This document shows positions 3,602 through 17,349 of a stretch of DNA of 39,713 bases, in pieces. The DNA comes from Escherichia phage vB_EcoP_SYGE1. The notes under the pieces are model-generated. The model was not told the origin of the DNA and ran no database searches. It worked only from the letters and a program-made list of their open reading frames with translations. Each line of letters opens with the position of its first letter. Position 1 is the stretch's first letter. Made by a program: the position numbers and the translations under genes. The stretch lies in the sequence record MW883060. One strand, given 5' to 3'.

Positions 3602-3654
3602 TGTGTGTGTGTCCTCCTTTAAAGTTGAGACCGTCCGTGGTCTATTGGTCATCC

Positions 3655-5607
3655 TTATTGGTTCTGTACTAGAATACGAGTTGGTACAGAGTGGCGATCC
3701 TCATCGTTACGGAATGTTCGCCCGTTGTTGGAGATAGTGAACTTCAACCAGCCACCATCAGACGAGATGAAGTAAGACGCATTGTCACCAATAGGCACAG
3801 CGTTCCAGCGTCCGTTAGTCTGAATCCAGATAGTTCTCCATCGGACATCCTGTGAGAGACCTACTGAAACACCACCACCCACATCACCTTTCCACACCTC
3901 AGCCCACCCAGCATTCTTATTAACGTATCGACCATCAGCTTGGGCTTGTGTCAATCGACCATTGACCAAGTTGTTCACTTCTCCTTTGGTGTAGGCGTGT
4001 TCGTTTAGTCGGTGGTTTACCCATGCATCAATGTACATTCCATACTTATCGATATATAGGTTACCATCTGGTGGGATATACCAACCAGTCGAGCTAACAA
4101 GAGTACCATCACTCCTGAAATCGAAGTGAGTCACACGGAGATAATGTCTGATAAAGAAGTTAGCGCCATCGCCATTGTTGTATAAGCACTTAGCATACAG
4201 GTGCTCTTTGCCCCAAATGGTTGCTCGCTCAAGGAGATAGTTTACATCACCCTGCTTCTCAATGTTATGCTGAACATCAGGTGTCAGACTGCTAGTCCAC
4301 TGGTTCCAACCACCACCATGCGTTTTCTTAGTGAAACTTGAAGTGGTAGAATCAATGAAAAAGTTCTTATTAGTGTGCACCCCATCGGCTTTAAGTGAAA
4401 CTGATGTGTTGTTTTGGTAACTATGGAGATATACATCTGCGCTACCTTTGTTTGCACGACCTACGTACCAATCATTTACCCCAGCTTGCGACCCAAACAC
4501 CGCTGTTGTTCCTTCATTATTACTAGAGGTTGACTGTAGGTTAAGTCTTGGTTGTTCAGTGTTGGAGACGAAGCTACCATGTTCAGCATAGAAGTCACCA
4601 TTACTAAGTTTAACCCCTGATTTAAAAGTTGGGGTTGCTCCCTCTACCTTCTCAATGGTTCCAGCTAGGCCATTCATATTACCCAACTTGTTGGCCTCAG
4701 ACTTAGCACGGTCTGCTTCACTCTCAGAGCGGTTTGCCTCAGTGTTGGCTCGGTCAGCATGTCCCTTAGCGGTCTCAGCATGTGCAGCAGCCTTGGCAAC
4801 CTCAGCAGCAGCTTTAGTCACTTCTCCGGCAGCACGATTGGCCTCATCACGGGCACGATTGGCCTCAGAGTTGGAACGGTCAGCTTGCTTCTCGGCCTCA
4901 GCGACACTTGCGGTCATACTGTCAGCATAACCTTTAGCACGATTGGCCTCAGAGTTGGAACGGTCAGCTTGATTCTTGGACTCAACTGCTTGTGCCGTAG
5001 AGACACCTGCCTGCTGGGTCGAGCGGTCAGCTTCACGTTTCGCGCGGTCAGCTTCGTCGCGTGAGCGGTTGGCTTCCCTGTTGGAGCGGTTAGCGTGTTC
5101 ATCAGCTTTAGTAACAGCGTTCCACACAGAGGTCTCACGTTCCTTAATCTGCTTCAGCGGGACGGCATCATAGTCGCCAGTAGCGAACGCTAGGTTAACA
5201 ATCTTACGACCACGGGCATCCAAGTGACCATTATTGTTGACACCGATAGTATCCGCAGTCATGTCACGAGCCTCTTCCGCTACGTGCATTGTTTGAATCT
5301 GAGCAACGTTAAGGTCATACGCACGGAGGATTGAGCCGTCCGTAAAGTCAACCAAGCGGTCGGTCGTGGAGGTTACTCGACGTAACTCGATGGTCGTGTA
5401 GCCATCTGACGGACCCCAAGCCTTGGTCAGTGAGATGGTAGTACGTGTAGCAAAACGGTAGTCCGTATTAATCGTAAGGACCTTGCGGTCTACACCAATA
5501 AGAGTTACCACTACGAACTTACGGGCTAGATACTCAAACGGGATATTAAAATCACGCTTGGAGCCATCTAACTGGTAAGTCAAAACGGTTTTAATTACGT
5601 TAGCCAT
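3655..5607 (-). CDS. Tail fibre protein gp17 (650 aa), chimeric
   Basis: N-terminal ~150 aa match the recalled T7 gp17 tail-attachment domain; the middle is a long acidic/basic coiled-coil with ADRSNSEANRA-type repeats; the C-terminal domain is only distantly T7-like. Confidence 0.9.
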   Translation of the reverse strand: MANVIKTVLTYQLDGSKRDFNIPFEYLARKFVVVTLIGVDRKVLTINTDYRFATRTTISLTKAWGPSDGYTTIELRRVTSTTDRLVDFTDGSILRAYDLNVAQIQTMHVAEEARDMTADTIGVNNNGHLDARGRKIVNLAFATGDYDAVPLKQIKERETSVWNAVTKADEHANRSNREANRSRDEADRAKREADRSTQQAGVSTAQAVESKNQADRSNSEANRAKGYADSMTASVAEAEKQADRSNSEANRARDEANRAAGEVTKAAAEVAKAAAHAETAKGHADRANTEANRSESEADRAKSEANKLGNMNGLAGTIEKVEGATPTFKSGVKLSNGDFYAEHGSFVSNTEQPRLNLQSTSSNNEGTTAVFGSQAGVNDWYVGRANKGSADVYLHSYQNNTSVSLKADGVHTNKNFFIDSTTSSFTKKTHGGGWNQWTSSLTPDVQHNIEKQGDVNYLLERATIWGKEHLYAKCLYNNGDGANFFIRHYLRVTHFDFRSDGTLVSSTGWYIPPDGNLYIDKYGMYIDAWVNHRLNEHAYTKGEVNNLVNGRLTQAQADGRYVNKNAGWAEVWKGDVGGGVSVGLSQDVRWRTIWIQTNGRWNAVPIGDNASYFISSDGGWLKFTISNNGRTFRNDEDRHSVPTRILVQNQ

Positions 5608-15409: not shown

Positions 15410-16000
15410 TTAGCGAGTCAGTAGACCAGAAGTGAACGCATCGCCATCCAGCATATTGTACCCACCGTAGTCCACTTCGTACTCCATACAGAGACGTCTA
15501 GCCTCATCTTCCTCTTCTTGGAGTACGCCCTCTACTTCCGGTGCCCCAAAGAATCGGTTGTTGAACTGACGGGAAGCCTTGGTGACAATCCAGTAGCGGA
15601 AGCACTCAGGCATCTCATCGTAGTCTCGAAGACGTATAATGTTCACTGTAATACCAGAGTCAAAGCGGTCTGTTTGATTCGTTCGGTCATATACATAGCC
15701 ACCTCGGTTGACGTAGATGGATTGACCGGAAGTAGACATTAAGGATAAATAGTCATCGCTGTATACAATCAGGTTGGAGTAAACATCAGGTAAGAGCGTT
15801 ACACCTTCCTCAATGTTGAACGTCCAGCCACGAGACTGAATCTGTCGGTTAATCTTATTGAGAATACGTCGAGCGTTCGCCACGTCTGCGTTAGAGTCAC
15901 CCTCTAGCGTCGATACCGGAGGTTCACCGATAGATGCCAGAATGTCGTTCACAGCTGATAACTCAGCGGCAGTCTCAACGTTCATATCATAAGAGCGCAT
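15410..16000 (-). CDS. Tail tubular protein A gp11
   Basis: 196 aa from ATG at 15998..16000 preceded by GAAAGGAGGAGG; [17 protein letters not shown]... matches recalled T7 gp11. The track ORF has a 12-codon upstream extension. Confidence 0.9.
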
Positions 16001-16021
16001 ATAGTTCCTCCTCCTTTCAGC

Positions 16022-16069
16022 AAAAAAACCCCTCAAGACCCGTTTAGAGGCCCCAAGGGGTTATGCTAG
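16022..16069 (-). terminator. T-phi late terminator for phage RNAP
   Basis: Minus strand reads CTAGCATAACCCCTTGGGGCCTCTAAACGGGTCTTGAGGGGTTTTTTG, the classical T7 T-phi hairpin plus U tract, immediately after the 10B stop. Confidence 0.95.
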
Positions 16070-17268
16070 TTATTGCTCAGCGGTGGCAGCAGCCAACTCA
16101 GCTTCCTTTCGGGCTTTGTTAGCAGCGCGTGTGCGTGCGGCCTTCTGTGCTGGCGTTAAGGTTTCTTCTGTTGAAGTAACACTCACCTCTTCGGGACTAG
16201 CAGCGACCGTTGAGGCCACCTCCTGCATTACTCCCCCTTGAAAACCACAGCACCAGCAGCTTCTGGGCGCAGACCACCGTGACCCATTGCATACTTAGCA
16301 ATAATCTGGTCAGCTTGGAAGTTAGCACGGCGAGCGCGCTCCAGAGCCAAGTCACGCAGTTTAACAGTACCTACCGCAGAGCGGTGCATGAACAGGCCGA
16401 TAACGTTGTTCTTAGCAACCTTGGCGTTATCACTCTTAGTGGTAGGGAAGGCGTGCTTCTGACCAGTAGTAGTATCATCACGAGCAGTACCAGCACCACC
16501 AGCGGTGAGGTGCGGAACTTCTACAACCTCAAAGCCCATAACGTTGCGGATAGAACCCTTCTCAGGGTCAATCAGAGCAGCGTAGTTTGCCGCGTTCGGC
16601 ATCAGCGCAGCCAGAATCGCAGAGTAGCTATCTGGGTCGCAGTAGAACACGCGGTCAGCAGCTGGAACATAGTTCTTGGTCAGAGCCGCACGAGCTTTGG
16701 TCAGAGCCGCAATAATCTCCTTACCCAGAGCAACTTGGTCGGTAAGCTCACTCTTGCTCTGAGTGGTCTCAATCACAGTGGCAGTGCCCAGACCTGCAAT
16801 GTTCTCATCAGCGGTACTCTCCAAGTTACACAGGCCAGCAATCTCAGCCAGAACCGCACCATCAGCAGCCATCGCCAGAGATTCACCCAACTGAGAGGTA
16901 TACTCAGAGCGAACGTCATAGTGGTTCATCGCGTCCTCAATATCGTAAATCAGAACGTCAGCCGTCAGGAGACCATCAATGGTGATTACCTTCTCGGTGT
17001 GTTTGATGTCTTTACGTTTATCATCGAGGTTCTCACCCGGAGCCAGATACGCTGCCTGAGTGCGACCCAGAACAGGGAACTGAGCAGATTTACCGCTGGA
17101 AATGGAACGGACCATGTGGCGAGAAGTGGTCACAGAGGTACGAGCGAATGCAGTCAGAACTTCACCACCAAATACCTTCAAGAACAACGCCAGTTTATCA
17201 GAAGCACTTGCACCTTTACCTTTACCTTGGTTAGCACCCAGTTGCTGTCCACCAGTCATAGTAGTCAT
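16070..17268 (-). CDS. Minor capsid protein gp10B, made by -1 ribosomal frameshift near the end of 10A
   Basis: Slippery GGTTTTC on the minus strand at 16240..16246; the -1 frame stays open for 56 codons (QGGVMQEVASTVAASPEEV...KARKEAELAAATAEQ) to TAA at 16070..16072. Confidence 0.75.
16228..17268 (-). CDS. Major capsid protein gp10A
   Basis: 346 aa with ATG start behind the phi10 leader (AAGAAGGAGACATACATATG); near identical to recalled T7 gp10A after the first ~25 residues. Confidence 0.95.
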   Translation of the reverse strand: MTTMTGGQQLGANQGKGKGASASDKLALFLKVFGGEVLTAFARTSVTTSRHMVRSISSGKSAQFPVLGRTQAAYLAPGENLDDKRKDIKHTEKVITIDGLLTADVLIYDIEDAMNHYDVRSEYTSQLGESLAMAADGAVLAEIAGLCNLESTADENIAGLGTATVIETTQSKSELTDQVALGKEIIAALTKARAALTKNYVPAADRVFYCDPDSYSAILAALMPNAANYAALIDPEKGSIRNVMGFEVVEVPHLTAGGAGTARDDTTTGQKHAFPTTKSDNAKVAKNNVIGLFMHRSAVGTVKLRDLALERARRANFQADQIIAKYAMGHGGLRPEAAGAVVFKGE

Positions 17269-17326: not shown

Positions 17327-17349
17327 TCTCCCTATAGTGAGTCGTATTA
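17327..17349 (-). promoter_or_regulatory. Phage RNAP promoter phi10 with canonical leader
   Basis: TAATACGACTCACTATAGGGAGACCACAACGGTTTCCCTCTAGAAAT... on the minus strand, the classical phi10 leader. Confidence 0.95.

What the first reader, a model, noticed from the sequence alone, without database searches (positions are those of the whole stretch)
16070..16246. Programmed -1 frameshift site producing capsid protein 10B
10A terminates ...VVFKGE-TAA. The heptamer GGTTTTC (minus strand, 16246..16240) lies 3 codons before the stop, and the -1 frame is open for 56 more codons ending exactly at the T-phi terminator. This reproduces the known T7 10A/10B arrangement and is invisible in a simple ORF track.
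Basis: partly seen in the sequence, partly recalled or inferred. Interest (0 to 1): 0.35.

Follow-up and report, generated by a model that had tools for sequence, protein, structure and literature searches.

The report
T7-type capsid gene 10A/10B frameshift
This is the well-known ribosome "slip" near the end of the phage T7 major capsid gene, which gives a minority of capsid proteins a 56-residue extra tail; it is present intact in this T7 relative and is ordinary.

Summary
The window is a T7-like phage (Teseptimavirus, 92-94% identical to T7 and 13a) read as reverse complement. Gene 10A (16228..17268, minus) ends AVVFKGE-TAA. GGTTTTC lies in frame as G_GUU_UUC at 16246..16240. The -1 frame runs 56 sense codons to TAA at 16072..16070, 7 nt before the T-phi hairpin. 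The tail is 51/56 identical to the T7 10B tail.

Four results argue against chance:
- It is the only one of 14 in-frame slippery heptamers here with a long -1 ORF.
- 71 of 84 related capsid genes keep GGTTTTC exactly, with the -1 frame open 37-99 codons past the stop in nearly all and the +1 frame only 1-17.
- Tail variation peaks at -1-frame third codon positions, and all indels are multiples of 3.
- 51 relatives have no ATG in the first 15 codons of the tail, so a separate small gene cannot be the general explanation.

The frameshift has been demonstrated in T7 and, by mass spectrometry, in Kvp1. It is already known and of low interest.

One side result: a candidate stem-loop starts 6 nt after the heptamer. 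Synonymous variation is suppressed over it (p=0.0004), and a stem-loop with the same spacer covaries clearly in a sister lineage.

The parts
17327..17349 (-). phi10-type T7 RNA polymerase promoter driving gene 10
   Evidence: Perfect match to TAATACGACTCACTATAGGGAGA. An AAGGAG ribosome-binding site and the ATG at 17268 follow.
16228..17268 (-). Gene 10A, major capsid protein (346 aa, zero frame, stop TAA 16230..16228)
   Evidence: ORF. Pfam PF21703 Gp10A-like, E 5.8e-113. Matches T7 capsid chain 2xvr_A at E 1.3e-200.
16240..16246 (-). Slippery heptamer G_GUU_UUC (Val342-Phe343), site of the -1 shift
   Evidence: Position read from the ruler and by script. Exact in 71 of 84 related capsid genes. 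The Val codon is GTT in 75 of 79 sequences, codon entropy 0.33, the second lowest of 17 conserved Val columns (most 0.8-1.65).
16070..16240 (-). 10B-specific -1 frame: 56 sense codons (QGGVMQEV...ATAEQ) plus TAA. C16240 is read twice. Full 10B = 17268..16240 joined to 16240..16070, 399 aa
   Evidence: Translation. 51/56 identical to the T7 tail. phrog_12582, E 5e-28. Variability by codon position 0.083/0.043/0.143 in the -1 frame, and all indels are multiples of 3.
16226..16228 (-). ATG overlapping the 10A stop (TAATG): the start that ORF callers use for a separate 52-aa ORF. Probably not a real start
   Evidence: Listed as an ORF and annotated that way in AV103. The ATG is lost in L038 while the tail is kept. 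It is absent from the first 15 tail codons in 51 relatives.
16174..16233 (-). Candidate 3' stimulatory stem-loop. Outer stem 16233..16225 pairs with 16182..16174, starts 6 nt after the heptamer and contains the 10A stop. Inner hairpin 16220..16214 pairs with 16208..16202, loop UCAAC
   Evidence: RNAalifold consensus. 99% of cells paired but no compensatory change. Third-position variability 6/20 here against 234/333 in the 10A body, p=0.0004. Local fold z = -2.0. Status: inferred.
16022..16062 (-). T-phi terminator hairpin (16062..16027) and T-run. Includes CCCC at 16060..16057, the distal element reported to affect T7 gene 10 frameshifting
   Evidence: Terminator scan. The hairpin itself is identical in T7 and almost invariant in 18 relatives, with one base differing at each end of the stem in two of them. 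The role of CCCC is taken from PMC5009743.
15998..16000 (-). ATG of gene 11 (tail tubular protein A), marking the end of the gene 10 unit
   Evidence: Sequence. Aligned with the T7 gene 11 start.

Best explanation
Gene 10 of this T7-like phage yields two capsid proteins from one mRNA by programmed -1 ribosomal frameshifting.

Most ribosomes read G_GUU_UUC in the zero frame and stop three codons later, giving 10A (346 aa, 36.6 kDa). A minority slip back one base while tRNA-Val and tRNA-Phe sit on GUU and UUC. These re-pair to GGU and UUU, the next codon read is CAA, and translation continues for 56 codons to give 10B (399 aa, 42.0 kDa). The acidic linker and basic helical end of the tail would lie on the capsid surface.

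Shown here: the site, the frames, homology to T7 10B, conservation of the heptamer, and the coding signature of the tail.

Inferred from T7 and Kvp1 experiments: that the shift really happens, and at about 10%.

Inferred and less certain: that it is stimulated by a stem-loop starting 6 nt downstream (16233..16174), together with the distal T-phi element described for T7.
For: - **Site and frames:**
- **Orthology to T7:** region 92.6% identical, tail 51/56 identical, T-phi hairpin identical. T7 10B is annotated as a joined CDS at the homologous place.
- **Uniqueness in the genome:** the only one of 14 in-frame slippery heptamers with a long -1 ORF.
- **Conservation:** GGTTTTC exact in 71/84 relatives. 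The -1 frame is open 37-99 codons past the stop in nearly all, the +1 frame only 1-17. The Val codon is held at GTT.
- **Coding signature:** third positions of the -1 frame vary most (21 variable sites, against 12 and 6), and all indels are multiples of 3.
- **No ATG** in the first 15 tail codons in 51 relatives, nor in L038.
- **Literature:** G_GU U_UUC is the T7 shift site (PMC5009743). About 10% 10B in wild-type T7, and under 1% from the heptamer alone (PMC1635266). MS peptides prove the same shift in Kvp1 (PMC2579914).
- **Downstream structure:**, and covariation in a sister lineage.
Against: - No protein data exist for this phage.
- G_GU is not a perfect X_XX, and the heptamer alone is weak (<1%), so efficiency depends on stimulators that are not understood even in T7.
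- The three codons after the heptamer differ from T7 (AAG GGG GAG against AAA GUG GAG), which could change efficiency.
- The proposed local stem-loop has no compensatory change in this lineage. Its fold is only mildly better than shuffles (z -1.1 to -2.0). A covariance model from the sister lineage does not find it.
- A few relatives lack the first G (AGTTTTC, CGTTTTC), and 10B is dispensable in the laboratory (PMC3276506).
Confidence: 0.9

Rival explanations
1. The tail is a separate small gene. Ribosomes terminate at the 10A stop and start again at the overlapping ATG (TAATG, 16228..16226), making a free 52-aa peptide. No fusion protein is needed.
For: The ORF 16070..16228 starts with ATG. 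GTAATGC is invariant in the 18 closest relatives and is preceded by a purine-rich GGAG-like stretch in most. Several GenBank records and phrog_12582 treat it as its own 52-aa 'head protein'.
Against: L038 has lost the ATG (GTAACAC) but keeps the tail and the pairing of that segment. 51 relatives in other lineages have no ATG in the first 15 tail codons, yet the -1 frame stays open from the heptamer. The invariance of TAATGC is also explained by its place in the outer stem. The conserved heptamer would be left unexplained. In T7 and Kvp1 the tail is found fused to the capsid protein. The database entries are products of ORF callers, not experiments.
Confidence: 0.05
2. The site is a relic. The heptamer and the open frame are inherited from a T7-like ancestor, but in this phage shifting is negligible because the context after the heptamer differs from T7.
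For: The heptamer alone gives under 1%. The three codons after the heptamer differ from T7. 10B is dispensable. Some relatives have a truncated or missing tail (L040 and L023).
Against: The same AAGGGGGAG context occurs in many relatives that keep an intact tail. The tail shows purifying selection in the -1 frame, with no frame-breaking indel among 18 distinct sequences. The T-phi element and the candidate stem-loop are intact.
Confidence: 0.04
3. The longer protein arises from transcriptional slippage: RNA polymerase drops a U in the U4 run, so a fraction of mRNAs carries the tail in frame.
For: The heptamer contains a T run. The review covers slippage of this sort for other genes.
Against: Four T's is far shorter than the runs known to cause polymerase slippage (my own knowledge of the field, not tested here). 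The conserved register G_GUU_UUC, including the G before GUU in 71/84 sequences, fits tRNA re-pairing rather than polymerase slippage. The review classes T7 gene 10 as ribosomal frameshifting.
Confidence: 0.01

Closest known systems
Bacteriophage T7 gene 10A/10B -1 programmed ribosomal frameshift (Dunn & Studier 1983; Condron, Atkins & Gesteland 1991)
   Same: Orthologous gene, the same heptamer G_GUU_UUC three codons before the 10A stop, a 56-codon tail 51/56 identical, and an identical T-phi hairpin with its CCCC just downstream.
   Different: The last residues of 10A are KGE rather than KVE. The first tail residues are QGGVMQEV rather than QSGVMLGV. The T-run is 7 T's rather than 6. 10A is 346 aa here against 345 in T7.
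Kluyvera phage Kvp1 / Salmonella phage BP12A capsid frameshift
   Same: The same GGTTTTC heptamer in the same place, the conserved tail end LTPxQKAARTRAANKA, and a stem-loop starting 6 nt downstream. The shift is proven by MS in Kvp1.
   Different: The tail is shorter (45-48 codons) with an unrelated linker. There is no ATG at the 10A stop. The stem-loop differs in sequence and loop size and is not detected in the window by a covariance model built from that lineage.
Phage T3 / phiYeO3-12 gene 10 frameshift
   Same: A -1 shift near the end of the homologous capsid gene, giving a minor capsid form.
   Different: A different heptamer (C_CCA_AAG at Pro-Lys codons) and a tail of about 85-95 aa described as Ig-like. 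The T7-type tail is not Ig-like.
E. coli dnaX -1 frameshift (A_AAA_AAG with upstream Shine-Dalgarno and downstream stem-loop)
   Same: Tandem -1 slippage on a heptamer by bacterial ribosomes, probably assisted by a 3' stem-loop after a short spacer.
   Different: dnaX has a perfect heptamer, 50% efficiency and an upstream Shine-Dalgarno stimulator, and the shift shortens the protein. Here the heptamer is imperfect, no Shine-Dalgarno-like motif is visible 10-14 nt upstream, efficiency in T7 is about 10%, and the shift lengthens the protein.

Membership tests
T7-type gene 10A/10B -1 frameshift | In-frame heptamer G_GUU_UUC a few codons before the stop of the major capsid gene | tested here: met
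   16246..16240, three codons before TAA.
T7-type gene 10A/10B -1 frameshift | Host gene is a Gp10A-like major capsid protein | tested here: met
   PF21703, E 5.8e-113. T7 capsid chain 2xvr_A, E 1.3e-200.
T7-type gene 10A/10B -1 frameshift | -1 frame open from the heptamer well past the zero-frame stop, encoding a tail homologous to T7 10B | tested here: met
   56 codons. 51/56 identical to T7. phrog_12582, E 5e-28.
T7-type gene 10A/10B -1 frameshift | Tail evolves as protein-coding sequence in the -1 frame | tested here: met
   Variable sites 12/6/21 at codon positions 1/2/3, and all indels are multiples of 3, in 18 distinct sequences.
T7-type gene 10A/10B -1 frameshift | Distal 3' element: T-phi terminator with CCCC just after the 10B stop | tested here: met
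   Hairpin 16062..16027, CCCC at 16060..16057, hairpin identical to T7. Presence only: its effect on shifting comes from the literature and cannot be tested here.
T7-type gene 10A/10B -1 frameshift | A 10B fusion protein is actually made (about 10% of gp10) and built into capsids | not testable with these tools
   Known for T7 and Kvp1. No protein data for this phage.
Canonical -1 frameshift cassette (X_XXY_YYZ, spacer, 3' stem-loop or pseudoknot) | Strict X_XXY_YYZ heptamer allowing full re-pairing of both tRNAs | tested here: not met
   G_GU is not X_XX. The P-site tRNA-Val would face GGU after the slip. The review lists this as a tolerated variant.
Canonical -1 frameshift cassette (X_XXY_YYZ, spacer, 3' stem-loop or pseudoknot) | Stable, conserved RNA structure starting 5-9 nt after the heptamer | tested here: inconclusive
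   A stem-loop with a 6-nt spacer is predicted. 99% of cells paired but no compensatory change. z = -2.0. Synonymous variation suppressed, p=0.0004. Strong covariation only in a sister lineage. A covariance model from that lineage fails to find it here.
dnaX-type frameshift | Shine-Dalgarno-like stimulator 10-14 nt upstream of the heptamer | tested here: not met
   The upstream sequence GAAGCTGCTGGTGCTGT has no GGAGG/AGGAG-like motif.
T3-type capsid frameshift with Ig-like tail | C_CCA_AAG heptamer and an Ig-like tail of about 85-95 aa | tested here: not met
   Those features occur in L024-L029, not in the window. The tail has no Pfam domain.
Independent small 'head protein' gene (phrog_12582) | Own start codon conserved wherever the tail is conserved | tested here: not met
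   The ATG is lost in L038 and absent from the first 15 tail codons in 51 relatives.

The most novel reading that the evidence does not exclude
A bipartite stem-loop begins 6 nt after G_GUU_UUC and contains the 10A stop codon. It is a conserved local stimulator of capsid frameshifting across T7-like lineages, and it could account for part of the long-unexplained stimulation of T7 gene 10 shifting.

In the window's lineage it lies at 16233..16174. Over this stretch synonymous variation is suppressed (6/20 variable third positions, against 70% in 10A). In the Kvp1/BP12A lineage, a stem-loop with the same 6-nt spacer that also contains the 10A stop has 10 covarying pairs.

I could not read the 1991 mutational papers, so this element may already have been tested.

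A weaker add-on, from reading the sequence only: AAGGGG just after the heptamer (16239..16234) could pair with CCCCUU of T-phi (16060..16055). That G-run is not conserved in position among relatives.
Probability: 0.4. Interest if true: 0.3.

Novelty: already known. Interest (0 to 1): 0.1.

Why it matters
For annotation, gene 10 of this phage should carry a joined 10B CDS (17268..16240 joined to 16240..16070, minus strand) rather than a separate 52-aa 'head protein' ORF. Several GenBank records and one PHROG family make that error. Biologically it adds nothing new, because the T7 10A/10B frameshift has been known since the 1980s and the tail is dispensable in the laboratory.

Two side results may interest specialists. 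The heptamer and a basic tail end (LTPxQKAAxTRAxNKA) are kept across distant T7-like lineages although 10B is 'dispensable'. There is also comparative evidence for a local downstream stem-loop, which bears on the still unexplained stimulation of this frameshift.

Tried and rejected
- **1991 primary papers.** I tried to read Condron et al. (both papers) and Sipley et al. (PMC328964, PMC209055, PMC5952207). None is held, so statements about T7 stimulators rest on the 2016 review and later papers.
- **Whole-region folds.** Folds from the heptamer to T-phi, and of the first 90 nt, are not significantly more stable than shuffles (z -1.1 and -1.3).
- **Covariation in the window's lineage.** There are no compensatory pairs and the shuffles do not discriminate. 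An alternative outer helix (GGGA/UCCC), which is the single-sequence minimum-energy fold, is kept in only 80% of cells and was set aside.
- **Covariance model.** A model built from the Kvp1/BP12A stem-loop finds only the heptamer in the window (12.3 bits, E 0.43). The two lineages' structures cannot be shown to be homologous this way.
- **Rfam.** No family matches 15900..16400.
- **Apparent extreme conservation of the tail.** It showed in a 4-sequence alignment but is not general. With 18 sequences, overall diversity of the tail is ordinary; only the first ~60 nt are constrained.
- **T_TTA_AAG at 3623.** This in-frame heptamer lies in the ribosome-binding region upstream of the likely gene 17.5 start and is not a frameshift site.
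- **A conserved GGGG partner for the T-phi CCCC.** G-runs occur near the heptamer, but at different positions in different relatives and not at all in L018.

Full report
**What the window is.** The region is 92.6% identical to T7 and up to 94.9% identical to other Teseptimavirus genomes such as AV103, JeanTinguely and 13a. The first 25 kb aligns over 90-94% of its length with IME390, 13a and T7 at 92-94% identity, in reverse orientation. The window is therefore a T7-like phage genome read as reverse complement. A perfect phi10-type promoter lies at 17349..17327, followed by a ribosome-binding site and the gene 10 ATG at 17268.

**Checking the observation.** On the minus strand, gene 10A runs 17268..16228 (346 aa) and ends ...AAGAVVFKGE, TAA.
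- GGTTTTC is at 16246..16240 in the register G_GTT_TTC, and three codons (AAG GGG GAG) separate TTC from the stop.
- From C16240 the -1 frame reads QGGVMQEVASTVAASPEEVSVTSTEETLTPAQKAARTRAANKARKEAELAAATAEQ, which is 56 codons, then TAA at 16072..16070.
- The T-phi hairpin (16062..16027, 15 pairs, then a T-run) begins 7 nt later, so 'exactly at' is slightly loose.
- Predicted masses are 36.55 kDa (10A) and 41.96 kDa (10B, 399 aa).

**Is it more than chance?** From composition alone, a 56-codon open frame has probability about 0.05, which is weak by itself. Two further results are stronger.
- Of 14 in-frame slippery heptamers on the coding strand, this is the only one followed by a long -1 ORF (56 codons; the next best is 11).
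- I fetched 80 related capsid loci from IMG/VR and three GenBank records. GGTTTTC is exact in 71 of 84 sequences. The -1 frame stays open 37-99 codons beyond the 10A stop in nearly all of them, and the +1 frame only 1-17.

The Val codon of the heptamer is GTT in 75 of 79 distinct genes. Its codon entropy is 0.33, the second lowest of the 17 conserved Val columns, most of which lie between 0.8 and 1.65. The nucleotides are therefore conserved, not only the amino acids.

**Is the tail translated, and in which frame?** I compared 18 distinct Teseptimavirus sequences.
- Variability in the tail is 0.083/0.043/0.143 at codon positions 1/2/3 of the -1 frame, with 12, 6 and 21 variable sites.
- All indels are 3, 6, 9 or 27 nt.

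That is the signature of a coding sequence in that frame. The tail is 51/56 identical to the T7 10B tail. It has no Pfam domain. The 10A part is PF21703 and matches the solved T7 capsid chains, which cover only 10A residues.

**Fusion or separate gene?** ORF callers list the last 52 codons as an ORF starting at the ATG that overlaps the 10A stop (TAATG). AV103 annotates it so, and phrog_12582 is a 52-position 'head protein' profile that matches these 52 residues end to end. Three results argue against a separate gene.
- L038 has lost the ATG but keeps the tail.
- 51 relatives have no ATG in the first 15 tail codons.
- The heptamer conservation would be left unexplained.

Experiments in relatives show a fusion. 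T7 10B is a joined CDS in V01146. About 10% of translations give 10B (PMC1635266). The review names G_GU U_UUC as the shift site (PMC5009743). MS peptides prove the same shift in Kvp1 (PMC2579914), which belongs to one of the lineages I sampled.

**Mechanism.** The best-supported reading is tandem -1 slippage of tRNA-Val and tRNA-Phe from GUU UUC to GGU UUU, with CAA as the next codon read. What boosts the slip is less clear.
- The heptamer alone gives under 1%.
- The review calls the effect of a CCCC in the terminator, over 200 nt away, unexplained. That CCCC is present here at 16060..16057, in a hairpin identical to T7's.

**A candidate local stimulator.**
- RNAalifold on 18-19 relatives predicts an outer stem (16233..16225 with 16182..16174) that starts 6 nt after the heptamer and contains the 10A stop. 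It encloses a hairpin (16220..16214 with 16208..16202).
- Pairing is kept in 99% of cells. All changes are one-sided, so covariation is uninformative.
- At two adjacent pairs the set shows U-G, U-A and C-G, and G-U, G-C and A-U.
- Third-position variability over 16233..16174 is 6/20, against 234/333 in the 10A body (Fisher p=0.0004). The rest of the tail is ordinary at 16/25.
- In the Kvp1/BP12A lineage a bipartite stem-loop with the same 6-nt spacer has 10 pairs with compensatory changes, and 0 of 500 shuffles reach that.
- The Klebsiella-phage lineage has a hairpin with two covarying pairs.

Against this, folds of the window sequence are only mildly better than shuffles (z -1.1 to -2.0). A covariance model from the sister lineage does not recover the structure here. 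Rfam has no family for the region. I rate the local stimulator as plausible, not shown.

**Comparison with what is known.** This is the T7 gene 10A/10B frameshift in a close relative. It differs from the T3 type, which uses C_CCA_AAG and an Ig-like tail. It differs from dnaX, which has a perfect heptamer, an upstream Shine-Dalgarno element and 50% efficiency. 10B is reported to be dispensable for growth (PMC3276506) and surface-exposed, which is the basis of T7 display (PMC8811829).

**Verdict.** The feature is already known and of low interest. Its practical value is correct annotation of a joined 10B CDS.

Noticed in passing
window 16174..16233 (-): Third-codon-position variation in the first ~60 nt of the 10B tail is strongly suppressed: 6/20 variable sites against 70% in 10A (p=0.0004). 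The rest of the tail varies normally. This points to an RNA-level constraint just after the shift site.
   Followed up: partly
L019-L022, L033-L043, L081 (positions 1782-1901 of those loci): The Salmonella BP12A / Kluyvera Kvp1 lineage has a bipartite stem-loop starting 6 nt after GGTTTTC, with 10 compensatory pairs. The Kvp1 paper reported only a 'potential pseudoknot' 144 bp downstream of the capsid gene and 'no typical slippage site'.
   Followed up: partly
tails of L001-L022, L030, L033-L038, L041-L043, L046, L048-L050, L052, L055-L056, L058, L076, L081 and window 16073..16150 (-): The short-type tails differ completely in their linker but share a basic end, LTPxQKAAxTRAxNKAxK, across distant T7-like lineages. 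That is surprising for a protein reported as dispensable. Its function is unknown.
   Followed up: no
L038:1806-1907: One relative has GGTTTTAAAG, which creates a second overlapping heptamer U_UUA_AAG. It has also lost the ATG at the 10A stop while keeping the outer-stem pairing through U-G to C-G and G-U to A-U changes.
   Followed up: partly
L007, L016, L039, L046; L023; L040: A few relatives lack the first G of the heptamer (AGTTTTC, CGTTTTC). L023 has no tail at all. L040 has a premature stop in the tail (GTTTAG for GTTGAG) that also hits the 3' arm of its stem.
   Followed up: no
window 16070..16228 (-); GenBank OR352934 and others; phrog_12582: Gene callers and some records annotate the 10B tail as a free-standing 52-aa 'major capsid' or 'head' protein. 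This is an annotation artefact, and it has become a PHROG family.
   Followed up: yes
PDB 8rcx_A residues 22-63: A solved 'VirS transcriptional regulator' chain matches tail residues 358-399 (E 6e-9). This probably comes from a T7 10B-derived solubility tag or vector sequence (my own knowledge, not checked) rather than from homology.
   Followed up: no
window 16001..16028 (-): Relative to T7, the T-phi T-run has 7 T's rather than 6. The gene 11 ribosome-binding region carries an extra GGA (GAAAGGAGGAGGAACTAT), which AV103 shares.
   Followed up: no
window 3655..5607 (-): The ORF at the position expected for the tail fibre gene is 650 aa and contains repeated ADRSNSEANRAK-like units. From memory, T7 gp17 is about 553 aa, which suggests a different receptor-binding module.
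   Followed up: no
window 3617..3623 (-): An in-frame T_TTA_AAG shows up in a stop-to-stop ORF scan. It lies in the Shine-Dalgarno region (AAGGAGG) upstream of the likely gene 17.5 start (MLSLDFNN...), so it is not a recoding site.
   Followed up: yes
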